From NCBI RefSeq assembly GCF_013167455.1, contig NZ_CP038328.1: 64,000 nucleotides of DNA. One strand, given 5' to 3'. Position numbers and translations under genes: made by a program. Origin of the DNA: Escherichia coli O157:H7 (lineage in GTDB: Bacteria; Pseudomonadota; Gammaproteobacteria; Enterobacterales; Enterobacteriaceae). Below are positions 3,665 to 25,988 of the stretch, one piece after another (positions within the stretch are counted from its first letter, which is position 1; each line of letters begins with the position of its first letter). The notes under the pieces were generated by a model. The model ran no database searches, was not told where the DNA came from, and saw only the letters and a program-made list of their open reading frames with translations.

Positions 3665-3678
3665 CTCCGGGAACGCTC

Positions 3679-9889: not shown

Positions 9890-9939
9890 TCGTTTCGGCG
9901 CAATTTTCAGCAAACGATCAAAAGTGGTGAAAAATATCG

Positions 9940-9967
9940 TTGACTCATCGCGCCAGGTAAGTAGAAT
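9940..9967 (+). promoter_or_regulatory. sigma-70 promoter of the glyW-cysT-leuZ tRNA operon (-35 TTGACT, 16-bp spacer, -10 TAGAAT)
   Basis: Near-consensus hexamers with a GC-rich discriminator, ~70 bp upstream of glyW. Confidence 0.6.
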
Positions 9968-10040
9968 GCAACGCATCGAACGGCGGCACTGATTGCCAGA
10001 CGATAATAAAATCAAGTGATTAACTGATTGCTTGATGAAT

Positions 10041-10116
<76 letters not shown>

Positions 10117-10169
10117 GTTTAAAAGACATCGGCGTCAGCGGATGTCTGGCTGAAAGGCCTGAAGAATTT

Positions 10170-10243
10170 GGCGCGTTAACAAAGCGGTTATGTAGCGGAT
10201 TGCAAATCCGTCTAGTCCGGTTCGACTCCGGAACGCGCCTCCA
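10170..10243 (+). tRNA. cysT: tRNA-Cys (anticodon GCA)
   Basis: 74 nt ggcgcgttaacaaagcggttatgtagcggattGCAaatccg...ggttcgactccggaacgcgcctcca. Confidence 0.95.
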
Positions 10244-10255
10244 CTTTCTTCCCGA

Positions 10256-10342
10256 GCCCGGATGGTGGAATCGGTAGACACAAGGGATTTAAAATCCCTC
10301 GGCGTTCGCGCTGTGCGGGTTCAAGTCCCGCTCCGGGTACCA
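10256..10342 (+). tRNA. leuZ: tRNA-Leu (anticodon TAA), intact copy; prophage integration target
   Basis: 87 nt gcccggatggtggaatcggtagacacaagggattTAAaatccc...ggttcaagtcccgctccgggtacca, with long variable arm. Confidence 0.95.
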
Positions 10343-10408
10343 TGGGAAAGCTAAGAATAAAATCAAAGCAATAAGCAGTGTCGTGAAACCACCTTCGGGT
10401 GGTTTTTT
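10288..10408 (+). repeat. attL: left copy of the ~121 bp direct repeat (3' ~55 nt of leuZ plus its terminator)
   Basis: Nearly identical to 31693-31814 (one indel, one mismatch seen by eye). Confidence 0.85.
10385..10408 (+). terminator. rho-independent terminator of the tRNA operon
   Basis: gaaaccaccttcgggtggtttttt hairpin plus T-run. Confidence 0.7.
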
Positions 10409-10880
10409 CGTATTTGTATTTTGTGCAATGGCGGTAGAGTGGCGATGGTGTGGCGATATGCAGAAACAATGGTAGTGCACGTGCTGTTTAAACTCTAAGG
10501 ATGAAGCAGAATTCTTCTGCAGCTCCTCCGTATTTCGCATAGTGAACCAGGACCTCTGTTAAACAAAAATTTTTCTGGGATTTTTCCACTCGACTTTATT
10601 TTTCCTCCTGCAATCCACCAACAGGTACCTGCGCTAATCTATCTTTTTAATCTGACAACATCTTGGGAAAAGGCAAATTCGTCAGATTTACTGTTTTTCT
10701 GCTGCCTCGAATGCCGATGTCTGAAGCACTGATAAGAGTTCTATCTCTTTGATATAGATCTTTTTTTTGATGAATTGCACGACATATTATCGTTATGACA
10801 CCTTCTTGTTAAAGGTATTGTGCTCCTCATCTCGATTTTATGATGTGGGCTATGATTGGTTAGTAATTGAGTGTATCGGT

Positions 10881-11162
10881 ATGCGATGTGGTTTATTAAT
10901 GGCAATCTGCCTTTGTTTAGTATCTTTTAGTGGATATGCAGCAACAGGAAAGTCTGATGCTCAGATCAAAAAAGAAATAATTAAAGAATCCATTGAATCT
11001 TATCCAGGCAATTGTGCGTGTCCTTATAATCATGCAAGGAATGGTAGTAGATGTGGTGGACGCAGTGCATATAGCCGTAATGGAGGGTATGACGTGGTAT
11101 GTTATGAGGGTGATGTTACCGATGAAATGATCCGGCAATGGAAGCAGGAGAATGCTGAGTAA
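10881..11162 (+). CDS. small secreted cysteine-rich protein of unknown function (prophage cargo)
   Basis: ORF 10767-11162; likely start at the ATG at 10881 (MRCGLLMAICLCLVSFSGYA / ATGKSD... signal peptide); 4 Cys in the mature part; AT-rich. Confidence 0.5.
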   Translation: MRCGLLMAICLCLVSFSGYAATGKSDAQIKKEIIKESIESYPGNCACPYNHARNGSRCGGRSAYSRNGGYDVVCYEGDVTDEMIRQWKQENAE

Positions 11163-11261
11163 TCTCTTTTAACAGGTTTGTTGTGCGAGCATTATGTGCC
11201 GTTAACGGTTCACATCCCGAAAATCTGCGCTTCTGGCTGAAAGCCTGTCCGGTGGTCCTTC

Positions 11262-12398
11262 GTGAGCGATTTCATCAACAATGTAAGTGTAGATTCAATT
11301 GGTCAACGCAACAGTTATGTGAAAACATGGGGTTGCGGAGGTTTGGAACTATGGAAGAACGGAACAGGCTTCAGTGAAATAGCGAATATCCTGGGTTCAA
11401 AACCCGGAACGATCTTCACTATGTTAAGGGATACTGGCGGCATAAAACCCCATGAGCGTAAGCGGGCTGTAGCTCACCTGACACTGTCTGAGCGCGAGGA
11501 GATACGAGCTGGTTTGTCAGCCAAAATGAGCATTCGTGCGATAGCTACTGCGCTGAATCGCAGTCCTTCGACGATCTCACGTGAAGTTCAGCGTAATCGG
11601 GGCAGACGCTATTACAAAGCTGTTGATGCTAATAACCGAGCCAACAGAATGGCGAAAAGGCCAAAACCGTGCTTACTGGATCAAAATTTACCATTGCGAA
11701 AGCTTGTTCTGGAAAAGCTGGAGATGAAATGGTCTCCAGAGCAAATATCAGGATGGTTAAGGCGAACAAAACCACGTCAAAAAACGCTGCGAATATCACC
11801 TGAGACAATTTATAAAACGCTGTACTTTCGTAGCCGTGAAGCGCTACACCACCTGAATATACAGCATCTGCGACGGTCGCATAGCCTTCGCCATGGCAGG
11901 CGTCATACCCGCAAAGGCGAAAGAGGTACGATTAACATAGTGAACGGAACACCAATTCACGAACGTTCCCGAAATATCGATAACAGACGCTCTCTAGGGC
12001 ATTGGGAGGGCGATTTAGTCTCAGGTACAAAAAACTCTCATATAGCCACACTTGTAGACCGAAAATCACGTTATACGATCATCCTCAGACTCAGGGGCAA
12101 AGATTCTGTCTCAGTAAATCAGGCTCTTACCGACAAATTCCTGAGTTTACCGTCAGAACTCAGAAAATCACTGACATGGGACAGAGGAATGGAACTGGCC
12201 AGACATCTAGAATTTACTGTCAGCACCGGCGTTAAAGTTTACTTCTGCGATCCTCAGAGTCCTTGGCAGCGGGGAACAAATGAGAACACAAATGGGCTAA
12301 TTCGGCAGTACTTTCCTAAAAAGACATGTCTTGCCCAATATACTCAACATGAACTAGATGAACCGCCCCGGGTTTCCTGGAGAGTGTTTTATCTGTGA
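11262..12398 (+). pseudogene. IS30 transposase, damaged: canonical N-terminus missing, C-terminus replaced by read-through into IS629
   Basis: ORF matches IS30 Tnp from ELWKNGTGFSEIANILG... to ...LAQYTQHELD; the native start (MRRTFTAEEKASVF) is absent and the last ~12 codons read into the IS629 inverted repeat. Confidence 0.7.
11288..12357 (+). mobile_element. IS30 remnant (left IR TGTAGATTCAATTGGTCAACGCAACAG present; 3' end cut off by the IS629-like insertion)
   Basis: IS30 terminal repeat and transposase recognised from memory; the right end with its IR is missing. Confidence 0.75.
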
Positions 12399-12400
12399 AC

Positions 12401-13291
12401 TCAGGCTGCCAGATCATCGTTTCCGATGGAAGCATAATAAGCTTTTTCTGCTTCTGCCGGAGGAGTATGGCCCAGCCTTCCCAGCAATCGTCGATTGTTA
12501 TACCAGTCCACCCACGTTAGTGTGGCCAGTTCCACTTCTGCACGGTTTTTCCAGCTCTTACGGTGTATTACCTCCGCTTTGTAAAGACCATTGATGCTCT
12601 CAGCCATCGCGTTGTCATACGAGTCGCCTGTACTCCCTGTTGATGCCAGTAATCCGGCTTCTTTTAGTCGCTCCGTATAGGCCAGTGACACATACTGAGA
12701 GCCTTTATCGCTGTGATGGATGGTGCCAGACGGACGACGGGCCCACAACGCCTGCTCCAGCGCATCCAGCACGAATGTCGTTTCCATAGACGATGAGACC
12801 CGCCACCCCACGATGTATCCGGCAAACACATCAATGATAAACGCCACATAGACGAAGCCCTGCCATGTGCTGACGTAAGTAAAATCAGCCACCCACAGCT
12901 GGTCAGGTCGTTCTGCCACGAACTGACGGTTTACGCGGTCGCCTGCGGCAACGGCTTTCCGGCTGATGGTCGTACGGACCTTTTTACCCCGGAGAACACC
13001 GGCAAGTCCCATAACCGCCATGAGACGTGCCACTGTACATCTGGCCACCCTGATTCCTTCCCGTAACAACTGACGCCAGACTTTACGCACACCGTACACC
13101 TGATGATTTTCATCGTATACGCGCTGTATCTCTCTCTTCAGCCAGTCGTCGTGCTGCGCACGGGCACTGCGTTTATCCGGATGATGTCGCTGTTGCTGAC
13201 AATGGTAATACGTTGACGGGGCAATATGCAGTTCGCTGCATACCGGTCCGACCCCGTACTGCTCACGCAGCTTATCCAGCAGTGGCATCAT
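12401..13291 (-). CDS. IS3-family transposase OrfB (DDE integrase domain)
   Basis: 296 aa, [16 protein letters not shown]...; rve-type catalytic domain recognised. Confidence 0.85.
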
Positions 13292-13614
13292 TTTTTCCAG
13301 AGGCGGTCGAACTCCGCCTTCGCAAAATAAGCGGAAGCCTGGCGAAGGATATCGTTACTGCGGCGCAGTTCACGATTTTCACGTTCCAGCTCTTTCAGAC
13401 GCTGACGTTCAGCGCTGGTGAGCCCACCATCACCGCCCCCGGTATCCCGCTCATGCTGGCGAACCCAGACACGCAGAGTCTCCGGCGTACAGCCAATCTT
13501 TGGGGCAATGGAACAAATTGCCGCCCACTGTGAGTCATATTCATCCTGACTTTCCAGAACCATACGAATCGCCCGCTGACGGACTTCGGGGGAAAAACGA
13601 GTATTTTTAGTCAT
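13288..13614 (-). CDS. IS3-family transposase OrfA (HTH / leucine zipper)
   Basis: 108 aa, [22 protein letters not shown]...; overlaps orfB as expected for a -1 frameshift fusion. Confidence 0.85.
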
Positions 13615-13668
13615 CCTGTTTACCTCTTTCTCAGGGAGTTTAGTCTCCAGGATTTCCGGGGCGGTTCA

Positions 13669-14354
13669 ACACGATGGCTGAGGCGATTACCTACCGCCAG
13701 AAATTCAACGAACGTGAGGTGATGCTCTTATGGCCTGACTTCATCGCCTACAACCTGAAAAGTGGCAAAAACGAAACGTTCCCCGCGCCTGCTTATGCGT
13801 GCGGCCTTCGTGCGTACATTGACCATGAGCAGGGCTGGCACAAATCGCTGTCCAACGTTCCGGTTAAAAATGTGCTTGGGATGTCGAGGCATGTGTTCTG
13901 GTCGTTGCAGGCCGAAGACAGTGATGCCAACAGCCTCAACAACAAAGAAATCACGACCATTATTCGTCGCAACGGGTTCCGCTTCTGGGGCAACCGCACA
14001 CCGGAAACGAACGCCTACATCTTTGAGGTGTATACCCGAACCGCACAGGTGCTGGCTGATTCAATTGCGGAAGCGCAGTTTGAAACCATCGACAGTCCAC
14101 TGACACCTGCGAACGTGAAGGATGTTATCAGTGCCATCAGGGCAAAACTGGATTCACTGGTTACTGCCGGGAAACTGATTGGCGCGGAGTGCTGGTATGA
14201 CATCGAGGATAACAGCACCACGAATTTACGTCAGGGGCGTGTGCGTATTCGCTACAAATATACGCCCGTTCCTCCGCTGGAAGACATGGAGCTTTACCAG
14301 TCGTTTACTGATGAATTCTTTGGTCCCGCATTTGCGGTGCTGGGAGGTGCCTGA
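13669..14354 (+). pseudogene. P2 FI-like contractile tail sheath, C-terminal fragment (5' end cut off by IS629 copy 1)
   Basis: 226 codons continuing straight from the IS junction; resembles the sheath C-terminus; a full sheath is ~390 aa. Confidence 0.7.
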
Positions 14355-14866
14355 TGGCTGTACCAAAACATCTTCGCTTTTTTACGCTGTTTGTGGATGG
14401 TGAAAACGAAGTGGGTAAGGTGACGTCCGTCACCCTGCCTAAACTGACGCGCAAAACCGACAGCTACCGGGGTGGTGGCATGATGGGTGCGGTAAGTATT
14501 GACCTCGGCCTGGACGACTCCGCGCTTGATGCGAGCTTTGTCATGGGGGGCGCAGTTCGTGAGCTGTTCCTGAAGTATGGCGGCACGATTGACGGCACGC
14601 TACTGCGTTTTGCGGGGGAATACTACACCGATGATGAAAGCGACCTGTATGAAGTCGAAATGCGCGGACGTGTGACGGAAATTGATATGGGGGAAGCCAA
14701 ACAGGGCGAAGCCACATCACACACTTACGCCATTAAAAACACCTACTACAAGCTGAGTGTTAACGATCGCCCGTTGTGGGAGATTGACCTGCTGAACTTC
14801 ATTTACCGGAAGGACGGCAAGGACATTGTGCCCGATCGCATCCGTTCCGCGCTTGGGCTTGGCTGA
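14354..14866 (+). CDS. P2 FII-like tail tube protein
   Basis: 170 aa; TLPKLTRK...YRGGGMMGA...DLGLDD motif pattern of P2 FII. Confidence 0.8.
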   Translation: MAVPKHLRFFTLFVDGENEVGKVTSVTLPKLTRKTDSYRGGGMMGAVSIDLGLDDSALDASFVMGGAVRELFLKYGGTIDGTLLRFAGEYYTDDESDLYEVEMRGRVTEIDMGEAKQGEATSHTYAIKNTYYKLSVNDRPLWEIDLLNFIYRKDGKDIVPDRIRSALGLG

Positions 14867-14920
14867 TAAGTAATATGCAGGCGGCGCAGTGCGTCGCCTC
14901 TGACTGAAAGGAGTTTCCTG

Positions 14921-15450
14921 ATGAAAGAGACGAAAAACATCGATACCGAAAACACGGTAGTTACTGACACTGTGAAAGAAACCAGTGAGCGTGGTGTAAA
15001 ACTTACCCAACCAATTGAGCGAGGCGGCGAAAAAATCACGTATGTGGAGATCACCGGGGCTATTGAGCAGGCTGGATCTCTGCGAGATTTGTCGCTGTCT
15101 GATGTGCTGAATCTGAAAGCGGAATCCATGTTTACGCTGCTGTCACGCGTGACATCACCGCGACTGGATGAAGTGACGATCAAAAAAATGGCATCCCGTG
15201 ACTTTATTCAGTTATGTGTGGTTGCCGTAAATTTTTTGAGCGGTGCGGACTCTGGCGGGAAGAACGAACAGGCGACGGAAGCCTGATCACGGTTGTGTGC
15301 TTTGAGCACATAGAAGACTTTGTGGCAGATATTGCCGTTATTTTTAACTGGTCGCCCGCCGAAATCTTCATGATGACGCCCGGCGAAGTGGTTAGCTGGC
15401 GTGAGCGGGCGGCACTTCGCAGCGGGAATGCAGACAATGAAGACTCTTGA
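14921..15450 (+). CDS. tail assembly chaperone GpE and its -1 frameshift product E+E' (slippery T TTT TTG at 15232-15238)
   Basis: E frame ends at 15286; an overlapping -1 frame ORF (15214-15450) begins at the TTTTTTG heptamer, the conserved P2 E/E' recoding arrangement just upstream of the tape measure gene. Confidence 0.65.
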
Positions 15451-17527
15451 TATCCGGGTCGCTTTCAGCGCCGTTGACAGGCTGACCCGACCTGCCGAAA
15501 ACGCACGCCGCCTGATGGGGCAGTTTGGTGACTCCATCCAGCGAACGCAGGGGGCGATCAAAAATCTCGAGCGTCAGGCGCGATCATTTGAGCGCGCCCG
15601 CGACGCTGTCAGTAAAGCGGATGCTGGCATCGTGAAAGCACGACGCCAGCTTAACGCCCTTAATCAGTTACAACGCACGGGTACAGTGCTCAGCGAAAAA
15701 CAACAAAAGCTGATGCAGCAGTTAAGCACCCGGCTTGAACGCCTGAATGAATCGCGCACACGGGAAATTCAGAAAATGAGGGAACTTGGCGGAGAGCTGA
15801 AACGCCACGGCATTTCCCTGACAGGCAGCGATAACACCATTCAGCAGGCCATCAGACGCACCGAACAATACAACAACCAGCTTGAACGCGAACGGCAGGC
15901 GCTTGCGCGTGTAACGCAGGCGCGTGAGCGGTATTCGCACGCGCAGGAAACCGCGGGAAAACTGAAAACAGGTGGTGCGCTGGCAATTGGTGCGGCAGCG
16001 GCGGGCGGCTATGCTGCCGGGCGTTTTTTGCAGCCTGCGATCGGGTTCGGCAAAGAGATGTCCCGCGTTCAGGCACTGACGCGAATCGACAAAAACAGCC
16101 CGCAGTTTAAGGCGCTGCGTGAGCAGGCGTTAAAACTTGCTGAAACACAGTTTACTGCGAGTGATGCCGCCAGTGGGCAGAGCTTTCTGGCAATGGCTGG
16201 TTTTACTCCGCAGGCCATTCAGGCCGCATTGCCCGGTGTTCTTAATATGGCGCTGGCAGGTGGCGTCGAACTCGGCGAGACGGCTGATATAGGCTCCAAT
16301 ATCCTCACACAGTTCAACCTGACAGCCGATCAAATGGACCGGGTGGGCGATACGCTGACAGCAGCATTTACCCGGACCAATACTGATTTACGCGCGCTGG
16401 GCGAAACCATGAAGTATACCGGTCCGGTTGCCGCAAAACTTGGTATCAGTCTTGAAGAAGCGGCGGCCATGGCCGGGATGCTTGCCAATAATGGTCTTCG
16501 CGGAAGCGATGCTGGCACGGCCATGCGCGCAAGTCTGTCCCGCCTTGCATCACCGCCAAAAGCTGCGGCTGATGCACTGAAAGAGCTGGGGGTGTCAGTT
16601 GCTGACGCCAGAGGCAAAATGCGCCCGATGGAGGATGTGCTGCTTGATCTCTATAAGGCGACACAAAAATACGGACAGGTGGACCAGGTCTCCTTCTTCA
16701 AGGACATCGCCGGAGAAGAGGCGTTCGTTGGTTTGCAGACGCTTGTTGCGGCGGCTGGTTCAGGAGAGCTGCAAAAACTGACCAGAGAATTGCAGGGGGC
16801 AAGGGGAGAGGCCGATCGCGTCGCAAAAGTAATGGCTGATAATCTTGATGGGGACCTGAAAAATCTCGACAGCGCATGGGAAGGTCTTCGTATTCGCATC
16901 AGTGATCTGGTTGACGGTCCGCTGCGTTCTGTCACGCAGTGGCTCACGCGGGTGCTTGAAAAAATCACCTCGCTGGCGCAGGCCCATCCGGTACTGACGC
17001 GCCAGCTACTGATAGCAGGCGGTGCGTTGCTGGCAATGACTGCAACGATTGGCTCGTTGTCGCTGGTTATTGGGGTGCTTTACGGGAAGCTGGCCACCCT
17101 GCGTCTTGGTTTTGACATTCTTACCCGGTCAATGAATGTCGTCAGGGTGTTACCTGCGCTATGGGGAATGGTGACGGGTTCCGTTTCTTTACTGGGAGGC
17201 GTTATCGGGGCGTTGTTCAGTCCGGTTGGTCTTATCGTGGCTGCGCTTGCCGGAGCTGCCGTTCTTATCTGGAAATACTGGGATCCTATCAGGGCTTTCT
17301 TTGCCGGGGTGTTCAGCGGGATTATGGAAAGGCTGACCCCGTTGCGCGACACCTTTGAACGGTTTGGCCCTGTTTTTGACGTAATCGGAAGCGGTTCAGC
17401 CAGGTGTTTAACTGGTTTAAATCGCTGCTGTCACCGATGGAGTCCAGCAAGGAAACGCTGGATAAATGTACCAGTGCTGGCGAGGTATTCGGTAACGTTC
17501 TTGGTGGTGCGTTACAGCTTGTTCTGA
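15401..17527 (+). CDS. tail tape measure protein (GpT-like), N-terminal reading frame
   Basis: 708 codons, coiled-coil rich with hydrophobic segments; position after E/E'. Frame changes near 17380-17527. Confidence 0.75.
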   Translation: MSGRHFAAGMQTMKTLDIRVAFSAVDRLTRPAENARRLMGQFGDSIQRTQGAIKNLERQARSFERARDAVSKADAGIVKARRQLNALNQLQRTGTVLSEKQQKLMQQLSTRLERLNESRTREIQKMRELGGELKRHGISLTGSDNTIQQAIRRTEQYNNQLERERQALARVTQARERYSHAQETAGKLKTGGALAIGAAAAGGYAAGRFLQPAIGFGKEMSRVQALTRIDKNSPQFKALREQALKLAETQFTASDAASGQSFLAMAGFTPQAIQAALPGVLNMALAGGVELGETADIGSNILTQFNLTADQMDRVGDTLTAAFTRTNTDLRALGETMKYTGPVAAKLGISLEEAAAMAGMLANNGLRGSDAGTAMRASLSRLASPPKAAADALKELGVSVADARGKMRPMEDVLLDLYKATQKYGQVDQVSFFKDIAGEEAFVGLQTLVAAAGSGELQKLTRELQGARGEADRVAKVMADNLDGDLKNLDSAWEGLRIRISDLVDGPLRSVTQWLTRVLEKITSLAQAHPVLTRQLLIAGGALLAMTATIGSLSLVIGVLYGKLATLRLGFDILTRSMNVVRVLPALWGMVTGSVSLLGGVIGALFSPVGLIVAALAGAAVLIWKYWDPIRAFFAGVFSGIMERLTPLRDTFERFGPVFDVIGSGSARCLTGLNRCCHRWSPARKRWINVPVLARYSVTFLVVRYSLF

Positions 17528-18240
17528 CGCCTGCAAAAATGTTGCTGGATACGCTGGCGTGGATACTTGAAAAACTCGGTGTGCTTCCGGATGAAGCGGA
17601 AAGGGCGCGCAAGAAAATCGAAGACGCACAACGTGCGGCCATTCTTCAGGACAAGGTTGCTCTGTTTCAGGGAGACATTGCGAAAATCAATCCGCCGAAG
17701 TCTGCGGGAAATAGCAATGGCACCGGAGATGATAAACCCAAAGACAACAAACCTCTCACAGACAGCAATACCGGCACGCTACGCAGACTCAGCAAAATTG
17801 CTGATAACACAGGTAAGCTGGTTGATGAGACAAAAAAACGCATTGGCCCCGGCGATATTGTCTTTAAGAACCTGCCCCGCGCACTTGCTGTTCGTGGGGA
17901 GTGGCAGGAGCGGAAGATTGCGCAGGTCAGTAAGCCTGCCCCCGCAATTAATATCACACCCGTGGTCCCGGCTCCGCTGCCTCCGGCGCTGGTCCCTGTT
18001 GTTGCGGCCAGCTCCCGCCCGGTGGTGGAGGCCATACGATCGCCAGTGGCATCAGTTCCTGCAACTTCCCGTAACCGGGAGCCTGTTGCCTCCGGATTTG
18101 GCGGTGAAATTCATGTTCATCTGCATAACGTTGTTACGCAGAATCCCCGCGAACTGGCGAAACTGGTCGGCGAAATGGTCAGGGCAGAAATGGAACGGCG
18201 CGCCCGTGCCAGGCGTGGCAGTTTTTACGATAAAGATTGA
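17404..18240 (+). CDS. tail tape measure protein, C-terminal segment in a different frame (apparent frameshift)
   Basis: 278 codons in the +2 frame relative to the upstream part; this frame opens after a stop at 17377-17379. Confidence 0.6.
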   Translation: MFNWFKSLLSPMESSKETLDKCTSAGEVFGNVLGGALQLVLTPAKMLLDTLAWILEKLGVLPDEAERARKKIEDAQRAAILQDKVALFQGDIAKINPPKSAGNSNGTGDDKPKDNKPLTDSNTGTLRRLSKIADNTGKLVDETKKRIGPGDIVFKNLPRALAVRGEWQERKIAQVSKPAPAINITPVVPAPLPPALVPVVAASSRPVVEAIRSPVASVPATSRNREPVASGFGGEIHVHLHNVVTQNPRELAKLVGEMVRAEMERRARARRGSFYDKD

Positions 18241-18246
18241 GGAGTC

Positions 18247-18741
18247 ATGGCCATGATGATGATCTACGGCATGTTTGTTTTTGAGCTGCGCACGTTGCCG
18301 CATCAGCAGTTACAGCAAAACAAAAGCTGGCGACATGTGAAAAATGAACGCGTTAACCGTTCAGCAAGCTGGCAGTATATCGGTGCAGGTGATGATCGCA
18401 TCGTTCTTTCTGGTGTTCTTTATCCTGAGATTACTGGTGGCGAAGTGTCGCTGTCGTTGTTGACCACGCAGGCATATACAGGACGTCCTTGGCCTTTGAT
18501 TGATGGCGTCGGGCAGATTTACGGCATGTATGTCCTGACCGGAACGAATACGACCCGCTCCGAGTTTGATCGCTACGGTAAGGCGAAAAAGATAGAATTT
18601 TCACTGACTCTTGAACGCTGTGATGAGGATTTGCGGGAGCGCCTGCAATCCTCATCGTTCAGCGATATGCTGTCCGGCTTCAAAGATAAGGTGACATCAT
18701 CCCTTAATAGCGCGGCCAGCTCAGTTAAGGGGCTGCTCTGA
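18247..18741 (+). CDS. P2 GpU-like tail protein
   Basis: 164 aa; MMMIYGMFVFELRTLPHQQLQ... resembles P2 U. Confidence 0.8.
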   Translation: MAMMMIYGMFVFELRTLPHQQLQQNKSWRHVKNERVNRSASWQYIGAGDDRIVLSGVLYPEITGGEVSLSLLTTQAYTGRPWPLIDGVGQIYGMYVLTGTNTTRSEFDRYGKAKKIEFSLTLERCDEDLRERLQSSSFSDMLSGFKDKVTSSLNSAASSVKGLL

Positions 18742-18864
18742 TTTAACGTATGTCGCCAATTTCCTGATGAAGGTGACTGGCGACTTGCTGTTGTATGTCC
18801 TTCTCAGAAAATTGTTTTTGAATAACAAATAACAGGATTTTATAATCTCTTAACCTTATAACAT

Positions 18865-19470
18865 GTGTGGTCTGAAATAATAATTAAGGAGATTATCGTG
18901 CTATCTTACTTAATGGCAATTCACTTTGTTTTATTTGGAAACTCTACTAATTTAAAAAACTTCTGGAAACATGAAGTAATTCGGCGGAAACGTATGGATA
19001 TCTGGAGGCTTTTAAGAGAGAAAAAGCAGCGTAACCGGAATTTCCTTTTCTGGTGGCGGTTGGCTAACGAAATGTATATTAATGGTAATAAATTACATAA
19101 GAAAGCAGCCAAAAAGTTAAACAGTAAAATAATTAACAAGTTTGGTTGTGAAATAGGATTGGGCGCAAATATTGGAAAAGGGTTGACAATTCCCCATCAT
19201 GCTGGAATTGTTGTTCATTTTGCTGTTGATGCGGGTGAAAATCTGGTATTACGACAGAATACTACCATTGGACAGATAGATGGTGATATGCCTAGTTCAA
19301 GAGTAAAAATTGGTAGTAACGTTGATATCGGAGCTAATTGTTGCATCATTGGATTATCACGTAAAATTGGGGATAATGTAAAAATAGGTGCAATGTCTTT
19401 TATAAATAAAGATATACCATCAAACTGCACATATATAACTAAAAAGAGTGGTGTTGTATTGTATAAATAG
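18865..19470 (+). CDS. left-handed beta-helix (hexapeptide-repeat) O-acetyltransferase, CysE/WcaB/NeuO-like (prophage cargo)
   Basis: Hexapeptide repeats (IGANIGKG...IGSNVDIGANCCIIG...IGDNVKIGAMS); strongly AT-rich; the true start may be an internal Met. Confidence 0.65.
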   Translation: MWSEIIIKEIIVLSYLMAIHFVLFGNSTNLKNFWKHEVIRRKRMDIWRLLREKKQRNRNFLFWWRLANEMYINGNKLHKKAAKKLNSKIINKFGCEIGLGANIGKGLTIPHHAGIVVHFAVDAGENLVLRQNTTIGQIDGDMPSSRVKIGSNVDIGANCCIIGLSRKIGDNVKIGAMSFINKDIPSNCTYITKKSGVVLYK

Positions 19471-19513
19471 AGTACATAAAGCCATCGATATTTCTGTCGA
19501 TGGCTTTTTCTTT

Positions 19514-19930
19514 TTATTGTGGGGCGACTGGCCACTCAACATCCGCTGCTACTGTTGTATCAACACGATTCAACAATACCCGATATGTCTTCCATGCAGC
19601 CAGTAACGATGCCTCTTCCTCCGTCGCAATATCCAAATCTACGGCATCCTGAAGTGGCGCAATATGCTCACTGGCTACCTGCATCAGGCTGTTTTTTGTT
19701 TCTTCTGCCTCCCGTACCCGAAACAGTTTTTCTGCTTCTGCATCTTTCGCCCAGGATGTGCCGTTCCACTTCTGACACTCTCCATCCGGCGACAACCAGG
19801 TAACATTTTCCGGTAACGGACCGAGTTCAGAAATAAATAACGCGTCGCCGGAAGCCACGTCATAAACCGTTTTACCCCGATGATCTTCAACGAGATGCCA
19901 CGATGCCTCATTACTGTTGAAAACAGCCAC
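19514..19930 (-). CDS. tail fibre assembly protein (Tfa family), 5'-truncated; the reading frame continues upstream to 20046 without a start
   Basis: C-terminal Tfa region recognised; the upstream frame 19931-20046 translates [38 protein letters not shown] and runs into IS629 copy 2. Confidence 0.75.
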
Positions 19931-20046
19931 GAAGCCAGCCGGAATATCTGGCGGTGCAATATCGGTACTGTTTGCTGGCAGACCTGTATGAGGCGGAATG
20001 TATGCGTCACCTTCACCAATAAATTCATTAGTTCCGGCCAGCAGAT

Positions 20047-21104
20047 TGAACCGCCCCGGGAATCCTGGAGACTAAACTCCCTGAGAAAGAGGTAAACAGG
20101 ATGACTAAAAATACACGTTTTTCCCCCGAGGTCCGTCAACGGGCAGTCCGTATGGTTCTGGAAAGTCAGGGCGAATATGACTCACAATGGGCGGCAATTT
20201 GTTCCATTGCCCCAAAGATTGGCTGTACACCAGAGACTCTGCGTGTGTGGGTTCGTCAGCATGAGCGGGATACCGGGGGCGGTGATGGTGGACTCACCAC
20301 CGCTGAACGTCAGCGTCTGAAAGAGCTGGAACGTGAAAATCGTGAACTGCGCCGCAGTAACGATATCCTTCGCCAGGCTTCCGCTTATTTTGCGAAGGCG
20401 GAGTTCGACCGCCTCTGGAAAAAATAATGCCGCTGCTGGATAAGCTGCGTGAGCAGTACGGGGTCGGACCGGTATGCAGTGAACTGCATATTGCCCCGTC
20501 AACGGATTACCACTGTCAGCAACAGCGACATCATCCGGATAAACGCAGTGCCCGTGCGCAGCGCGATGACTGGCTGAAGAGAGAGATACAGCGCGTATAC
20601 GATGAAAATCATCAGGTGTACGGTGTGCGTAAAGTCTGGCGCCAGTTGTTACGCGAAGGTATCAGGGTGGCCAGATGTACAGTGGCGCGCCTCATGGCGG
20701 TTATGGGACTTGCCGGTGTTCTCCGGGGTAAAAAGGTCCGTACTACCGTCAGCCGGAAAGCCGTTTCCGCAGGCGACCGCGTAAACCGTCAGTTCGTGGC
20801 AGAACGTCCTGACCAGCTGTGGGTGGCTGATTTTACTTACGTCAGCACATGGCAGGGCTTCGTCTATGTGGCGTTCATCATTGATGTGTTTTCCGGATGT
20901 ATCGTGGGGTGGCGAGTCTCATCGTCTATGGAAACGACATTCGTGCTGGATGCACTGGAGCAGGCGTTGTGGGCCCGTCGGCCGTCCGGCACAGTCCATC
21001 ACAGTGATAAAGGTTCTCAGTATGTATCACTGGCCTATACGGAGCGACTAAAAGAAGCAAAACTGCTGGCATCAACAGGGAGTACAGGTGACTCGTATGA
21101 CAAT
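20047..21104 (+). mobile_element. IS3-family IS629-like element, copy 2, 3'-truncated (~1058 of ~1310 bp), inverted relative to copy 1
   Basis: Left IR TGAACCGCCCCGGGAATCCTGGAG at 20047; similarity to copy 1 stops after ...gactcgtatgacaa (~21104). Confidence 0.85.
20101..20427 (+). CDS. IS3-family transposase OrfA
   Basis: 108 aa, nearly identical to copy 1 OrfA (a few substitutions). Confidence 0.85.
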
Positions 21105-21116
21105 GTATTTTATTAG
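20427..21116 (+). pseudogene. IS3-family transposase OrfB, C-terminally truncated
   Basis: 229 codons versus 296 in copy 1; diverges after ...[11 protein letters not shown]. Confidence 0.8.
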
Positions 21117-21135
21117 TTCACATACAATTATCAGA

Positions 21136-21450
21136 TTATTCTGGGAATAAGGTCTGAATATTCTTTTTTATTTTATAAAAATTGCATTCAACTCCGCTAG
21201 GCTGATTAGCCTGGTATGTTTCCTTGATGCTAACGGTATTGAAGGGGAGGTTGTCCTCTGGCCATTCGGCCATCCAGTAGGCAAATGCTGGGTTGCGCTT
21301 TATGAGTGCTAGCCCAGCCAGAAAGGCCGCGCGTTGCGCGCGGCTGCGTTCGGAGGCTGGCAGGCTATCGAGGTAATTGCACGCCTCCTGTTCACTCTTG
21401 ACGGCGGCGGGCTTCAGATAGAAACTTATCCGTCTGGTTGGTGTCGTCAT
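21136..21450 (-). CDS. ParR/StbB-like centromere-binding adaptor of a type II partition system
   Basis: 104 aa; RRISFYLKP...LDSLPASERSRAQRAAFLAGLALIKRNP resembles plasmid R1 ParR (recalled from memory). Confidence 0.65.
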   Translation of the reverse strand: MTTPTRRISFYLKPAAVKSEQEACNYLDSLPASERSRAQRAAFLAGLALIKRNPAFAYWMAEWPEDNLPFNTVSIKETYQANQPSGVECNFYKIKKNIQTLFPE

Positions 21451-21454
21451 TGGT

Positions 21455-22414
21455 TTACTCCTTGTTCATTGCGTACAACCCATTAACCAGAGCAAACTGT
21501 GGCACCCCGTCCGCGATGAAAGTCGCATTAACTCCGCAGGCTTCGCGGATAGCGGTTGCCACAATCTCCGCCCCGCCACCGACAACCATCACCCGCCCGT
21601 AACCCGAAAAAACCGCCAGCGCGCGGATCACGCGTTGTTTCAGTGTTTCTTCCTTTTCACGAATAACCGCCATCAGGCTGGCGTAATGCGCGTCATTGTG
21701 GATGTGCTGGCGCAGCCAGGCTTCATCATGGCGATGTTCGATAATGGTATTGGCGATGTGGTGACTGGTGCGCATACCGTTAGTGGCCATCACCGACAGT
21801 ACGGCATCGGCCATCAGAGAAACGCCTACGTGTGGATCGCAAAACACCTGGCTGATACCTGCCAGTTGCCCCTGAACCTTTGCCACATCCAGCGTGGTTC
21901 CGCCCAAATCCACAATCAGCAGGGATTCAAACGGACTCATGTCAGCCAGTGCCTTAAAGCCAGCAGGAATGGATTCAGGCATAACCCGTACGTTACGGAT
22001 AGTGAATGCTTCGCCGTTCTGGTACTCCACCGGGCGCATGACGTTCGCTTTTTTGCGGTTGATGTTGGCCATGTCCGGCTGTGCGTTTGTATCGAAATAC
22101 TCGCTCAGTGGCAGGGTGACAACCACATCCACTTCCTGTGGTGTGATGCCTGATTTGACCAGCGCGTGATGAATGGCAATTACATTCACATCGCTGTACT
22201 GGTATTGCGTGTCGGTCGTCTGGACAAAGCGATCGCTGACCGGATCAAAACCATAGCGCACGCCATCAAGCATGTAGTTCGCGGGCTGCGTGCCACCGAA
22301 TGGCGCAGACCATTCCGACTTGAAGCTGTTCGGGCTGATGGCGTTGCGGCGTTCGCCGTTCTCAGTCCATGCCAGCTTGATGTTGGTGGAGCCGTCGTCG
22401 ATACAAATTTTCAT
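21455..22414 (-). CDS. ParM/StbA-like actin-family partition ATPase
   Basis: 319 aa; actin-fold motifs IDDGSTNIK (phosphate 1), LIVDLGGTTLD (phosphate 2), VMVVGGGA (adenosine). Confidence 0.75.
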   Translation of the reverse strand: MKICIDDGSTNIKLAWTENGERRNAISPNSFKSEWSAPFGGTQPANYMLDGVRYGFDPVSDRFVQTTDTQYQYSDVNVIAIHHALVKSGITPQEVDVVVTLPLSEYFDTNAQPDMANINRKKANVMRPVEYQNGEAFTIRNVRVMPESIPAGFKALADMSPFESLLIVDLGGTTLDVAKVQGQLAGISQVFCDPHVGVSLMADAVLSVMATNGMRTSHHIANTIIEHRHDEAWLRQHIHNDAHYASLMAVIREKEETLKQRVIRALAVFSGYGRVMVVGGGAEIVATAIREACGVNATFIADGVPQFALVNGLYAMNKE

Positions 22415-22450
22415 GTCGCTTTTCCTTATGTTGATTAATTAATCGGTTAC

Positions 22451-22560
22451 AGGATTTTTAAATCCCGCTTTTGCCTGTTTTGTGCGCGCTTCATATATCG
22501 CGGCGCGTTTTTTGCTCATTTACGGGATTTGTGAGTCCCGTTTCTGTCTGTTTTTTGTTT
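22451..22560. repeat. two copies of a ~35 bp repeat, each containing a GGATTT..AAATCC-type palindrome; candidate parC-like centromere or operator
   Basis: aggatttttaaatcccgcttttgcctgttttg (22451-22485) and cgggatttgtgagtcccgtttctgtctgttttttg (22525-22560), directly upstream of the parM-like gene. Confidence 0.4.
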
Positions 22561-25313
22561 CCACTGGTCAGGCCACCCCGCAGCAGGTCTGCTTTGCGGC
22601 TGGCGCGTTCAGTGGTTTCACTGATTCTCTGTGCGTGCTCTGCGTCGCGGATGGCGCGCAGCATGTCAGAAAGCACGGTAACGGGTGTTTTCATGGTGTT
22701 CTGGTCCTGCTGAAGTGTGGATGCCAGGCGTGCGGCGGCTTCAGGGTCTGATGCCCCCAGCTGTGCCAGATAGCTGGCGACCGGGTTATGGCGGATCTCC
22801 GTGCTGCTTACGCCATGATTACGGCTCAGGCGCTGCCAGAGCTGCGTGATTCGGCTGTCCGGGCGGGTATCCGGTTTGCGTACAATTTCAAATCCCTGCG
22901 GTGCAATGATGCTGCCGTCAACGTACAGACTGCCGCCCCGTAACAGGTGCTGCATCTGTTGTTCACCGATATGCAGGCCGAGAGATTCAGCAGACTCCCG
23001 CCATTCTTTAGCGAGTAATTCGTGGTTATCAGGCAAAGGCCGCTGCTGTTTGCGGCTCTGTGTCCAGCTCTGCATTTCATCACTGCTGTTTTTTGCCTGT
23101 TTGTCACGAAGCGAACGCATCAGCGCCCGGCGTTCGTGCCGTTTCAGTGAGCGCATCCATTCGTTCACGTCAACGCCGTCAGGAAGCTGCGGCCACGGTG
23201 CTGGCCGTTCTTCCGGCTGTTCTGTCCCGTTGTTGTCCGTTTCCTGTACACGGGGACAGTTATTGCCACGAGTCCAAGGGGCGGCAGGGCCGCCCTGAAG
23301 GTCAAAACCATTTTCGCGGGCGCTGTCTTCTACTCCCGGTTTACGTCTTACCAGCTTCCAGTTATCCGGGTGCGTGCACACACGGGAGGATTCCCCGATG
23401 AGTGGTGACCAGATCCCGTAAATCTGTACGCTCTGTTCGCCGTAATCGTTCAGCTCATCTGCGAGGTCGTAGGCGGTGCGAATCAGGTAGTCCTTGCGTG
23501 GAACAAGTACGCCTCCCTGTTTCTCAATGTAGGTGGTAAAACATCCGGCATCAGCGGCAGCAAGAACCGCATCCATTGCGTCATCCTTCAGCCGTTGCGG
23601 GCCTTCCGGGTTGCGTGCCATCTGGCTGGCAAGGCGACGCAGTTCACGCCACACCTGACGGGAGGGGATGCCAAAGAACTGGAACTGGCGGACCCGGTGA
23701 AGGCGCGCCCAGCCAATGGCGCGTTCCACGCTCTCGGTCATTGATTTTCCGGTTTCGTGGTCAACGCGTGGTTTGCCTGTTTTCGGGTCGATGCCATCCA
23801 CGGCGCGGCTGTCCAGGTTTTTTCCGATGTAGGTGGCGATGTAGCTGGTTGGCGTGCCTTTTGAGCCGTCGACATACTCCGCCTTAAAGCGCGGAGTAAT
23901 ATCATCGCCCAGCTCGTGACGATCTTCCTGAATGGCAATATCGCGGGTGTGGGACACAATGGTGTCGATTTCTTCCGGATGAGCAAAGACCATCATATGC
24001 CAGTGCACGGTGCCGTCATGGTGAGGCTCCACCGTGCGGATGCCATACCAGCGCAGGCCGTCGCGGTTCAGTTTCTTGCGGACCGCCGCAAAAAACGTGT
24101 TAACCAGGTAATCGCTGGAGTCGCGCATGGTGGCCCCGTTCCATTTGGGATTCGGATGACCGTTCTCTGTTGTAGCGTGGTATTTTGACGGGCAGGTGAC
24201 AGTCAGAAACACCGCTTTGTCGCCACGGGCTTCGGCCAGAAGTTCCAGCCCCTTCATGGTGGCCATCATTTCTGCCTTACGGTGAACCGGGTTACTTACT
24301 CCCGCGTAATACACTGTCTCGAGATCAATCGTGAACCCGTCTTCGTTTTCCAGCATGAAACTTTTCAGGAAATCGCGTGTTTTCTCGCGCTGTGCGCGAA
24401 ACTCGCTTAACGCGTCCTGGCTCAGATAGGGCGATGTTTTTCTGGAAACCAGACAGGCGGCGCGGAGTTGTTCTTCTCTCCACTCGCAACGTAACAGCCA
24501 CAGTTTGCGTTTCCACCATTCCGCACAGGTCAGGCGAAGGATTGCGCCCGGCAGCAGCTCCGTGTCCGGTTCGTTCCTCCGGTCTTTGTCTGTTGTCAGT
24601 GCGTCATAATGTGGAGGCATGGCGTGCAGGTGTAACGCCATGCGGGCCAGCATCTGATACGCCTTCAGCGTTACATCCATGGTCAGTTCGCCATCGGTCG
24701 CGCCAAAGCCATCGCAGAGTTTTTCGAAGGTGCTGCTGAACATCGCCGCCGTCATGGTGGCCAGCGTCTGTATCTGGTGTTTGTTGAGCTGCGGCAGGTA
24801 AAGCAAATCGTCCAGGCGTTCGCGTCCGGCAAGGGAGCGATAACCCTGTGTCAGCCAGCGGTGATCGGTGCGCTCCAGACGTTCGAATATTTTGCGCAGG
24901 TTTCCGCGCGCGTAGCGTTCAGCCTGCCAGCTCTTTTTGCCTTTCTGACGATCGGCTTCCTGTTTTTTGCGCAGGAAGGAGAGGTGGCGAATAAGCGGAT
25001 CGCGCAGATAGGACGGCAGCAGGCGCAGCGAGGCCATGGCTTCATCCACCGCACCGCGTGCCTGTTTTCTGGCGTCTCCTGCCAGTGTGATGGTTTTGTC
25101 CTGTTTTTCCTGTGCGTCCAGGCTTTTATTAATCAGGTTGCCCAGCGGCGTTGCGGAGAACGCCGCATCAGCCATTTCCTGGCGGCGCTCGTTCTCTACC
25201 CGGTAGGCATCCAGCCAGGAGGAAAGCGCGGATTCAGGAGCGGGGATCCCCGTTCCTTCACGCCCCACTGCGTGGCGCGGTTGTTGCCAGTCCCTGATGT
25301 ACTCTGCCGTCAT
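22491..25313 (-). CDS. rolling-circle replication initiator endonuclease, P2 GpA-like
   Basis: 940 aa; HxH-type motif (GTVHWHMMVFAHP) and YIATYIGKN tyrosine region typical of the GpA family. Confidence 0.8.
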   Translation of the reverse strand: MTAEYIRDWQQPRHAVGREGTGIPAPESALSSWLDAYRVENERRQEMADAAFSATPLGNLINKSLDAQEKQDKTITLAGDARKQARGAVDEAMASLRLLPSYLRDPLIRHLSFLRKKQEADRQKGKKSWQAERYARGNLRKIFERLERTDHRWLTQGYRSLAGRERLDDLLYLPQLNKHQIQTLATMTAAMFSSTFEKLCDGFGATDGELTMDVTLKAYQMLARMALHLHAMPPHYDALTTDKDRRNEPDTELLPGAILRLTCAEWWKRKLWLLRCEWREEQLRAACLVSRKTSPYLSQDALSEFRAQREKTRDFLKSFMLENEDGFTIDLETVYYAGVSNPVHRKAEMMATMKGLELLAEARGDKAVFLTVTCPSKYHATTENGHPNPKWNGATMRDSSDYLVNTFFAAVRKKLNRDGLRWYGIRTVEPHHDGTVHWHMMVFAHPEEIDTIVSHTRDIAIQEDRHELGDDITPRFKAEYVDGSKGTPTSYIATYIGKNLDSRAVDGIDPKTGKPRVDHETGKSMTESVERAIGWARLHRVRQFQFFGIPSRQVWRELRRLASQMARNPEGPQRLKDDAMDAVLAAADAGCFTTYIEKQGGVLVPRKDYLIRTAYDLADELNDYGEQSVQIYGIWSPLIGESSRVCTHPDNWKLVRRKPGVEDSARENGFDLQGGPAAPWTRGNNCPRVQETDNNGTEQPEERPAPWPQLPDGVDVNEWMRSLKRHERRALMRSLRDKQAKNSSDEMQSWTQSRKQQRPLPDNHELLAKEWRESAESLGLHIGEQQMQHLLRGGSLYVDGSIIAPQGFEIVRKPDTRPDSRITQLWQRLSRNHGVSSTEIRHNPVASYLAQLGASDPEAAARLASTLQQDQNTMKTPVTVLSDMLRAIRDAEHAQRISETTERASRKADLLRGGLTSGNKKQTETGLTNPVNEQKTRRDI

Positions 25314-25757: not shown

Positions 25758-25988
25758 TTAATGGAGTTTGTTTTGCTGCTGGATGAGCTGTTGAAACTCG
25801 TGCAGATCATCCGCCAGATAGCTGAAAACAGAGGCGGAATAAATGTTTGATAGTGCGTGGCTGCGCTCATGCAGCATATTGATGTGCATGATTTGCGCGA
25901 CGCGTGATGCGCGGGAAAGTCTGCGGTTGATTTCAGTCTGGATGTGACGACGCTCCGCGATAGCGCGGTGCTGTTTGCGGTCTGCCAT
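25758..25988 (-). CDS. hypothetical prophage early protein
   Basis: 76-aa ORF in the early operon. Confidence 0.4.
   Translation of the reverse strand: MADRKQHRAIAERRHIQTEINRRLSRASRVAQIMHINMLHERSHALSNIYSASVFSYLADDLHEFQQLIQQQNKLH

What the first reader, a model, noticed from the sequence alone, without database searches (positions are those of the whole stretch)
12358..21104. Tail module bracketed by two inverted IS629-like copies, with gene orientation inconsistent with P2 synteny
Copy 1 (minus, intact) abuts a 5'-truncated sheath gene at 13668/13669. Copy 2 (plus, 3'-truncated) truncates the 5' end of the tfa gene at 20046/20047. The sheath-tube-E-T-U block runs on the plus strand, opposite to the tfa gene and to the gpA/early operon, whereas in P2 all of these are co-directional. 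The 3 bp flanking copy 1 (aga / aca) are not a matching target-site duplication. Together this points to IS-mediated inversion and/or deletion that removed the capsid, packaging and lysis genes and reorganised the tail genes. The two copies differ by a few substitutions, so they are not a very recent duplication.
Basis: partly seen in the sequence, partly recalled or inferred. Interest (0 to 1): 0.55.

Follow-up and report, generated by a model that had tools for sequence, protein, structure and literature searches.

The report
Decayed O157 prophage Sp13 tail remnant
This is the known defective P2-family prophage of E. coli O157:H7 (Sp13/CP-933T): insertion sequences deleted genes, but the "wrong" tail-gene orientation is native to this phage group, so the finding is ordinary.

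Summary
The structure is real. An intact IS629/IS1203 copy (12359-13668, minus) abuts a sheath gene lacking its first 499 nt. A 3'-truncated IS629-family copy (20047-21103, plus) abuts a tail-fibre-assembly gene lacking 16 codons. Sheath-tube-E-T-U runs opposite to tfa and gpA.

Plaque-forming phage P88 and seven other Peduoviridae have the same native order. So do an apparently intact prophage at the same leuZ site in strain 2013C-3513, and the same prophage (99.95% identical) in O157:H7 strain PV15-279. In all of them FI-U is opposite to H/G, D and the early operon, with no IS at the block borders. None of 5,426 complete E. coli genomes shows the inverted linkage.

The two copies differ at 51 of 1,058 aligned positions and are different IS629 subtypes.

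The deletion part holds:
- A 16,397-bp deletion (fibre, baseplate, lysis, head, packaging genes) is replaced by copy 2.
- In this strain a further 1,030 bp flush with copy 1 is missing, which explains the unmatched flanks. Sister strains have a perfect 3-bp duplication.

The element is the described prophage Sp13/CP-933T, a known substrate of IS629-driven decay. Interest is low.

The parts
10288..10411 (+). Left attachment-site repeat (3' part of tRNA-Leu leuZ plus downstream bases). It marks the left prophage boundary.
   Evidence: A 124-nt direct repeat, 98.4% identical, with 31694-31817. tRNA-Leu lies at 10256-10342.
10412..11212 (+). Left-end prophage remnant with two small hypothetical genes. 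It ends at a 3.3-kb IS-free deletion junction (11212/11213) that removed hok, ogr, a YecA-family cargo gene and the 3' two-thirds of gpD.
   Evidence: Window 9000-11213 matches L012 8830-11044. The next match starts at L012 14354. The junction sequence shows only imperfect short repeats. The genes are present in strains 2013C-3513 and PV15-279.
11213..11287 (-). Internal fragment of tail gene D (late control D / VgrG-like).
   Evidence: Matches P88 and 2013C-3513 gpD at 91.6%. It abuts IS30 with the 2-bp duplication AG.
11288..12358 (+). 5' part of an IS30-like element (1,175 bp when whole) inserted in gpD and interrupted by copy 1.
   Evidence: The IS30 left end is at 11288. Uninterrupted 1,175-bp copies with the AG duplication occur in L006 and L008. 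Annotated as IS30 family transposase.
12359..13668 (-). Copy 1: complete IS629/IS1203 (subtype I), 1,310 bp, with orfA 13288-13614, orfB 12401-13291 and the ALIL frameshift pseudoknot at 13217-13333.
   Evidence: Sister strains carry the 3-bp target duplication (AGA on the plus strand) inside IS30.
13669..14354 (+). Tail sheath gene FI, 3' part only (first 499 nt deleted).
   Evidence: phrog_23 tail sheath, profile positions 245-475 of 496. Window 13669 corresponds to L001 16700, where the sheath gene starts at 16201.
14354..14866 (+). Tail tube gene FII.
   Evidence: RefSeq annotation 'phage major tail tube protein'. Full-length match to phrog_55.
14921..15450 (+). Tail chaperone genes E (14921-15286) and E' (15295-15450).
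   Evidence: phrog_103. Annotated as 'tail protein' and 'GpE family phage tail protein'.
15437..18240 (+). Tape measure gene T, a pseudogene. A net 1-nt loss at about 17395 splits it into ORFs 15401-17527 and 17404-18240.
   Evidence: Annotated 'frameshifted' in RefSeq strains. The change is GA to T relative to PV15-279.
18253..18741 (+). Tail gene U.
   Evidence: phrog_76. The protein is identical to that of PV15-279. Similarity to P88 ends at 18747.
18898..19470 (+). Serine O-acetyltransferase cargo gene. It occupies the slot where P2 has fun(Z) and P88 has the invertase and invertible fibre segment.
   Evidence: The same gene sits in the same place in 2013C-3513 and PV15-279. The SAT-tfa pair is also found in P1-like phages.
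19514..20046 (-). Tail fibre assembly gene (G/tfa) lacking its first 16 codons. An Rfam IS009 hit lies inside it.
20047..21103 (+). Copy 2: IS629-family element of a second subtype, nt 1-1057 only, with no right end. The ALIL pseudoknot is at 20382-20498. It replaces 16,397 bp of prophage.
21136..25313 (-). Partition genes (ParR-like 21136-21450, ParM 21455-22414) and replication gene A (22491-25313), the end of the early operon.
   Evidence: Collinear with P88 and PV15-279.
31694..31817 (+). Right attachment-site repeat, just past the integrase gene (30586-31587). It marks the right prophage boundary.
   Evidence: Integrase and yecA are annotated.

Best explanation
The region is the tail-gene remnant of prophage Sp13 (CP-933T) of typical E. 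coli O157:H7. Sp13 is a Peduoviridae (P2-family) prophage of the P88 type, integrated at the leuZ tRNA gene. In this phage group the sheath-tube-E-E'-T-U operon is natively transcribed opposite to the fibre genes H/G, to gpD and to the early operon. The orientation in the window is therefore ancestral (shown).

The prophage then decayed stepwise:
1. An IS30-like element inserted into gpD with a 2-bp duplication (shown). This is shared with the beta-glucuronidase-positive sister lineage.
2. In the typical O157:H7 lineage, 16,397 bp from tfa codon 16 to just downstream of the par genes were lost and replaced by an IS629-family copy. One border is exactly the IS left end (shown). That the IS caused the loss is inferred, either by recombination between two direct copies or by an IS-adjacent deletion. 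This copy later lost its last 253 nt plus 8 flanking nt.
3. A 3.3-kb IS-free deletion removed hok, ogr and part of D, and a 1-nt frameshift killed T (shown).
4. In one sub-lineage an IS1203 (subtype I) inserted into the IS30 with a 3-bp duplication (shown).
5. In the strain of the window, 1,030 bp flush with that IS's left end were lost. They held the IS30 tail, the D N-terminal fragment and 499 nt of the sheath gene, and one copy of the duplication went with them (shown). The mechanism is inferred: either a transposase/IEE-type IS-adjacent deletion, or recombination with a second IS629 that had landed in the sheath gene.

The two IS copies bracket the tail genes by coincidence of independent insertions. 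They do not form a mobile or invertible unit.
For: Identity and site:
- The window is 100% identical to many O157:H7 chromosomes. The element lies between leuZ and yecA.
- Published accounts describe Sp13 as a P2-like prophage lacking most morphogenetic genes that still excises and replicates (PMC2669165).

Native orientation:
- P88 and seven other phages align in one collinear piece across D'(minus)-FI..U(plus) at 91-97% identity.
- Gene maps of P88 and 500465-2 show the order. P88 forms plaques (PMC5285337).
- An apparently intact prophage at the same site in 2013C-3513 has the order D(-) FI..U(+) SAT(+) tfa(-) H..O(-) P Q(+) par A(-).
- PV15-279 carries the same prophage at 99.95% identity, with tfa, H and the head genes present and no IS at tfa.

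No inversion:
- A synthetic inverted linkage found no genome of 5,426 with at least 80% cover.
- An intact TSD flanks copy 1 in sister strains.
- The intact relative has no inverted repeats at the borders of the FI-U block.

Deletions and IS biology:
- Two IS629 subtypes about 4-5% apart are known in O157:H7 (PMC3271280). Typing at 57 diagnostic sites agrees.
- IS629-linked deletions adjacent to the IS are documented in O157 (PMC9943667).
- Four independent simple IS629 insertions with TSDs lie within about 2.8 kb of this locus in other strains.
Against: - The exact junction of the window (IS left end joined to sheath nt 500) is found in none of 5,426 complete genomes. It rests on this single sequence. 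If the strain has two direct IS copies 1 kb apart, the junction could be a collapsed-repeat assembly artefact.
- Only one border of the 16.4-kb deletion in this lineage is an IS end. The other lies inside the IS, so at least one illegitimate joining step is needed.
- An 8-genome clade has different IS subtypes and junctions shifted by 4 and 8 nt at the same deletion. I could not derive that state by a single simple path, so the order of events around copy 2 is uncertain.
Confidence: 0.93

Rival explanations
1. One reading: homologous recombination between the two inverted IS629 copies, or IS transposition, inverted the tail block relative to a P2-like ancestral order.
For: - Two inverted IS629-family copies, 1,057 nt long and 95% identical, flank the segment.
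- The orientation differs from P2.
- The flanks of copy 1 do not match.
- IS copies at this locus do recombine: strain 472 carries a gene-conversion patch in copy 2.
Against: - tfa lies inside the bracket, so such a flip cannot change tfa relative to the sheath block.
- Relatives with no IS at the block borders have the same order.
- Copy 1 has a perfect TSD in sister strains.
- No genome of 5,426 shows the inverted linkage.
- Neither copy is chimeric in the window.
Confidence: 0.02
2. The copy 1/sheath junction in the window is an assembly artefact. The strain really has two direct IS629 copies, one in IS30 and one in the sheath gene, and the assembler collapsed them and dropped the 1,030 bp between.
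For: - The junction is absent from all 5,426 complete genomes.
- IS629 does insert into this sheath gene in another strain: CEC13091, at nt 336, with a TSD.
- Repeat collapse would give exactly this picture.
Against: - Real IS629-flush deletions at this locus are seen in closed genomes: PV15-279, 08-3914 and the 4276 clade.
- Nothing else in the window looks misassembled. The flanks are 100% identical to closed genomes.
- The biological conclusion about orientation and decay would not change.
Confidence: 0.1
3. The tail block is not part of the same prophage. It would be a separate tailocin-like or second-phage fragment joined to the Sp13 early region by IS-mediated fusion.
For: - The block is bounded by IS elements.
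- The SAT-tfa pair is 91-93% identical to P1-like phages rather than to P88.
Against: PV15-279 and 2013C-3513 carry the block, SAT-tfa, the head genes and the early region as one continuous prophage between the same att repeats.
Confidence: 0.01

Closest known systems
Prophage Sp13 of E. coli O157:H7 Sakai (= CP-933T of EDL933)
   Same: Same chromosome site (leuZ-yecA), same genes and the same truncated IS copy between tfa and the par genes in about 270 O157:H7 genomes. It is described as a P2-like prophage lacking most morphogenetic genes.
   Different: The window carries an extra 1,030-bp deletion flush with the IS1203 copy, which truncates the sheath gene. That deletion is not seen in any complete genome searched.
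Escherichia phage P88 (Peduoviridae, Xuanwuvirus) and relatives (500465-2, PhiR44_2, P884B11, Shae_phiSM, Chuche)
   Same: 93.6% identity over FI..U and 96.6% over par-A. The gene order is identical, with FI-U opposite to H/G, D and A.
   Different: P88 is complete and plaque-forming. Between U and G it has a DNA invertase and an invertible fibre segment, where the window has a serine acetyltransferase. P88 carries no IS elements.
Phage P2 (Peduovirus)
   Same: Same family. It shares the int-C / cox..A early region logic and the FI-FII-E-E'-T-U gene set.
   Different: In P2, FI..U-D form one operon co-directional with H-G and A. Here, and in all P88-type phages, FI-U is reversed and D is transcribed separately.
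IS629/IS1203-driven genome diversification in O157 (IS-adjacent deletions, IEE-assisted excision)
   Same: Deletions flush with an intact IS end, loss of the target duplication, and strain-to-strain polymorphism of IS629 sites in prophages.
   Different: Nothing unusual. This is one more example at a locus that turns out to be a local hot spot.

Membership tests
IS629/IS1203 (IS3 family), copy 1 | About 1,310 bp with terminal inverted repeats TGAACCGCCCCGG... | tested here: met
   The element spans 12359-13668 and is 1,310 bp, with both ends present.
IS629/IS1203 (IS3 family), copy 1 | orfA/orfB with a programmed -1 frameshift element | tested here: met
   ORFs at 13288-13614 and 12401-13291. 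ALIL pseudoknot scores 121.5 bits. RefSeq notes a 'programmed frameshift'.
IS629/IS1203 (IS3 family), copy 1 | 3-bp target site duplication | tested here: not met
   In the window the flanks are AGA and ACA. The feature is met in sister strains, with AGA on both sides, so the loss here is secondary.
IS629/IS1203 (IS3 family), copy 1 | Near-identity to named IS1203 copies | tested here: met
   99.9-100% identity to elements annotated as IS1203. There is one difference from the IS1203 copy in strain 4276.
IS629 family, copy 2 | Both terminal repeats present (a complete element) | tested here: not met
   Only nt 1-1057 remain and the right end is missing. The copy is 99.9% identical to a full-length element of the same subtype in strain 4276.
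Composite transposon (two IS copies mobilising the DNA between them) | Functional outer IS ends on both sides | tested here: not met
   The outer (right) end of copy 2 is deleted. The position of copy 1 differs between strains while the segment stays put.
IS-bracketed invertible segment | Both orientations occur among related genomes | tested here: not met
   No genome of 5,426 shows the inverted linkage. All genomes inspected have the same orientation.
Invertase-driven fibre switching (Gin/Cin/Min type, as in P88) | A DNA invertase gene and an alternative fibre/tfa cassette between G and U | tested here: not met
   P88 and 500465-2 have them. The window has a serine acetyltransferase in that slot.
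Peduoviridae, P88-type (Xuanwuvirus/Gemsvirus-like) prophage | FI-FII-E-E'-T-U transcribed opposite to H-G, D and the early operon | tested here: met
Peduoviridae, P88-type (Xuanwuvirus/Gemsvirus-like) prophage | Complete virion gene set (P2-family capsid, portal, terminase, baseplate, fibre) | tested here: not met
   All lie in the 16,397-bp deletion. They are present in PV15-279. The window therefore holds a remnant, not a phage.
Peduoviridae, P88-type (Xuanwuvirus/Gemsvirus-like) prophage | Genus-level nucleotide identity over the whole genome | not tested
   Only block identities were measured: 93.6% and 96.6% to P88. A remnant cannot be classified to genus.

The most novel reading that the evidence does not exclude
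The two inverted IS629-family copies do interact. Strain 472 shows a gene-conversion patch, and an 8-genome clade has the two subtypes in swapped positions. The 6.4-kb tail segment might therefore flip at low frequency in cultures, with only even numbers of flips fixed in the genomes sampled. That would make this a cryptic, low-rate invertible segment and a source of the odd junctions in that clade.
Probability: 0.06. Interest if true: 0.3.

Novelty: already known. Interest (0 to 1): 0.1.

Why it matters
It matters little beyond bookkeeping. It gives a clean worked example of how a P2-family prophage in O157:H7 was dismantled in steps by IS30 and two IS629 subtypes. It also carries a caution for annotation. 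Comparing a remnant with the type phage (P2) instead of its true relatives (P88-type) creates a false signal of rearrangement. The locus could serve as a strain-typing marker, because the IS629 position differs among O157 lineages.

Tried and rejected
- Inverted linkage. I searched for it with a synthetic 3.7-kb query made of the IS30 flank, the IS and the reverse-complemented tfa-SAT. No genome matched at 80% cover or more.
- Window junction. I searched for the exact IS/sheath junction in 5,426 complete genomes. It is absent, and the 13 closest hits have other IS positions.
- Inverted repeats at the FI-U block borders. In an intact relative I found only chance-level matches of 27 nt or less.
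- The 4276-clade arrangement. I tried to derive it from the window type by double inversion, whole-IS gene conversion, or nested insertion plus end joining. None fits all four junctions. Double inversion cannot restore a full-length right copy or the 8 native bases.
- Origin of the 8-nt TGTTGGTA. I tested whether it is a filler or comes from IS629. It is native phage sequence, present in PV15-279.
- Origin of the AGAT flank of copy 2. I considered that it came from IS30, which would have implied a flank exchange. It is native tfa sequence.
- A composite-transposon reading is rejected because the outer end of copy 2 is missing.


Full report
WHAT IS THERE. The window is E. coli O157:H7 chromosome. 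Bases 10000-24000 match many O157:H7 genomes at 100%, and 260 complete genomes cover at least 80% of that stretch. The finding lies inside a 21.4-kb prophage. The prophage is bounded by a 124-nt direct repeat made of the 3' part of tRNA-Leu leuZ, at 10288-10411 and 31694-31817. The integrase gene sits next to yecA. This is the prophage known as Sp13 in strain Sakai and, from my own knowledge, CP-933T in EDL933. It has been described as P2-like, lacking most morphogenetic genes, yet still able to excise and replicate after mitomycin C (PMC2669165).

CHECK OF THE OBSERVATION. One long inverted repeat is present. Copy 1 is a complete 1,310-bp IS629/IS1203 at 12359-13668 on the minus strand. It has both terminal repeats, orfA and orfB, and the IS3-type frameshift pseudoknot. 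It is 99.9-100% identical to annotated IS1203 copies. Copy 2 starts at 20047 on the plus strand and stops after IS nt 1057, at window 21103.

The genes between the copies are as follows:
- A sheath gene lacking its first 499 nt.
- The tube gene, E and E'.
- A tape-measure gene broken by a net 1-nt loss at about 17395.
- U.
- A serine acetyltransferase.
- On the other strand, a tail-fibre-assembly gene lacking 16 codons.

The flanks of copy 1 are AGA and ACA. In P2, H-G, FI..U-D and A are indeed all co-directional. One statement is wrong. The two copies differ at 51 of 1,058 aligned positions, not by a few. O157:H7 is known to carry two IS629 subtypes about 4-5% apart (PMC3271280). At 57 diagnostic sites copy 1 is purely one type and copy 2 purely the other.

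THE ORIENTATION IS NATIVE. Four lines of evidence provide it.
1. Eight distinct phages align in one collinear piece at 91-97% identity: 500465-2, P88, PhiR44_2, 520873, 503458, P884B11, Shae_phiSM and Chuche. The piece runs from the start of gpD on one strand through FI..U on the other.
2. In the gene maps of P88 and 500465-2, H and G run with the early operon and with D, and U-T-E'-E-FII-FI run the other way. P88 is a plaque-forming phage (PMC5285337), so this order is functional.
3. Strain 2013C-3513 carries an apparently intact prophage at the same leuZ site, 93.6-99% identical to the window. Its order is D(-), FI..U(+), acetyltransferase(+), tfa(-), H..O(-), P Q(+), par and A(-).
4. Strain PV15-279 belongs to the beta-glucuronidase-positive sister lineage of typical O157:H7 (PMC6256406). 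It carries the same prophage at 99.95% identity, with tfa complete, the fibre, baseplate, lysis and head genes present, and no IS next to tfa.

The P2-versus-P88 difference is therefore an old difference between genera of one family. It is not a recent event in this genome. In the intact relative there are no meaningful inverted repeats at the borders of the FI-U block.

WHY AN IS-MEDIATED FLIP IS EXCLUDED.
- tfa lies inside the bracket, so flipping the bracket cannot change tfa relative to the sheath block.
- In strain 17B6-2 and other sister strains, copy 1 sits in an IS30 element with a perfect 3-bp duplication, AGA on the plus strand. It is a simple insertion that has not recombined since.
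- A synthetic query encoding the inverted linkage found no genome of 5,426 with at least 80% cover.
- Every genome inspected has the same orientation.

WHAT THE IS ELEMENTS DID DO.
- Relative to PV15-279, the window lacks exactly 16,397 bp, running from tfa codon 16 to 31 nt beyond the par gene. Copy 2 occupies the gap. The lost genes are a macro-domain gene, H, I, J, W, V, S, R, the lysis genes, X, L, M, N, O, P, Q and two small genes.
- The left border is exactly the IS left end. The right border lies inside the IS.
- In an 8-genome clade the IS at this place is full-length and both borders are exact IS ends without a duplication. That is the signature of an IS-mediated deletion. That the IS caused the deletion is an inference.
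- An IS30-like element of 1,175 bp sits in gpD with a 2-bp duplication. It is also present in PV15-279.
- A 3.3-kb deletion without any IS removed hok, ogr, a YecA-family gene and most of D.

THE WINDOW-SPECIFIC DELETION. The window lacks 1,030 bp that sister strains have, immediately next to the left end of copy 1. The missing stretch holds the last 107 nt of IS30, the first 267 nt of D, the D-FI spacer and 499 nt of the sheath gene. This explains the unmatched flanks. Deletions adjacent to IS629 are documented in O157 (PMC9943667). The alternative is recombination with a second IS629 that had landed in the sheath gene, as one did at another position in strain CEC13091. The sequence cannot tell these apart. 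The junction occurs in no complete genome, so a collapsed-repeat assembly error cannot be excluded. I rate that at about 10%.

THE LOCUS IS A LOCAL IS629 HOT SPOT. Four simple insertions, each with its own duplication, occur within about 2.8 kb in different strains:
- IS30 at about nt 1041 (the sub-lineage of the window, 47 genomes).
- IS30 at about nt 168 (EC4115).
- The D-FI spacer (NCCP 13914).
- Sheath nt 336 (CEC13091).
Three further strains or clades have IS-flush deletions. The right copy is old and fixed in about 270 genomes. The left copy is young and movable.

UNRESOLVED SIDE ISSUE. In eight genomes (strain 4276 and relatives) the right IS is a full-length IS1203. It lies 4 nt deeper in tfa and is followed by 8 more native bases. 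The left IS is a full-length copy of the other subtype, followed by a 12-nt scrap of IS629 nt 1104-1115. The tail segment is not inverted. I could not find one simple path between this state and the common one. In strain 472, copy 2 carries a patch of the other subtype at about nt 380-869 while copy 1 is unchanged. This is non-reciprocal gene conversion. So IS copies here do exchange sequence, but there is no evidence that the segment ever flipped.

COMPARISON AND VERDICT. The element is a member of a known kind and is itself described: Sp13/CP-933T, a P88-type Peduoviridae remnant. The IS copies are ordinary IS629 family members. The composite-transposon and invertible-segment readings fail their defining tests. 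Novelty: already known. Interest: low.

Noticed in passing
window 26045-26132 (-) and 26168-26242 (-); neighbouring gene 25758-25988 (-): Rfam hits to the C4 antisense RNA (78.5 bits) and isrK (63 bits) lie directly upstream of the 'derepression protein' gene (P4 epsilon-like) in the early operon. This layout recalls, from memory, the P1-type c4-ant antirepressor arrangement. It might bear on the published, unexplained mitomycin-C inducibility of Sp13.
   Followed up: no
window 19551-19749 (-): A full-length Rfam IS009 hit (191 bits) lies inside the tfa coding sequence. It probably reflects that this candidate sRNA family was defined on tfa genes of cryptic prophages.
   Followed up: no
L013 (NZ_CP017442.1) 1363-2672 and 9621-10930; also seven sister genomes: An 8-genome O157:H7 clade has the two IS629 subtypes in swapped positions, both full-length. 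The junctions are shifted by 4 and 8 nt, and a 12-nt IS629 scrap follows the left copy. The tail segment is not inverted. The history is unresolved.
   Followed up: partly
L014 (NZ_CP018245.1, strain 472) 10322-11378: Copy 2 carries a patch of subtype-I sequence at about IS nt 380-869, while the neighbouring copy 1 is unchanged. This is non-reciprocal gene conversion between IS629 subtypes.
   Followed up: partly
L016/L017 (NZ_AP018488.1, PV15-279): The beta-glucuronidase-positive O157:H7 lineage keeps the head, baseplate, fibre, hok and ogr genes of this prophage. It has its own IS1203-flush deletion of D', FI, FII, E and the 5' part of T, and an internal stop in the holin gene. The same prophage therefore decayed independently in two sister lineages.
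   Followed up: yes
window 11212/11213: A 3.3-kb deletion with no IS at the junction removed hok, ogr, a YecA-family cargo gene and the 3' part of gpD. Only imperfect short repeats (CGTTAACGGT / CGTTTAACGTT) lie at the ends.
   Followed up: partly
window 11288-12358 plus L001 15670-15776: The IS30 copy in gpD is 1,175 bp when uninterrupted (L006, L008). From memory that is 46 bp shorter than canonical IS30, and its transposase is annotated at 378 aa.
   Followed up: partly
window 18898-20046: The acetyltransferase-tfa pair is 91-93% identical to the same pair in P1-like phages (JL22, vB_EcoM-Ro157c2YLVW). The rest of the tail block is P88-like. This cargo-plus-tfa cassette is therefore shared across unrelated myoviruses.
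   Followed up: partly
window 21105-21304: The 3' half of the ParR-like gene and its downstream bases do not match P88 or 2013C-3513. They match PV15-279 and many ST131-type strains at 98.8-100%. This points to a mosaic par allele.
   Followed up: no
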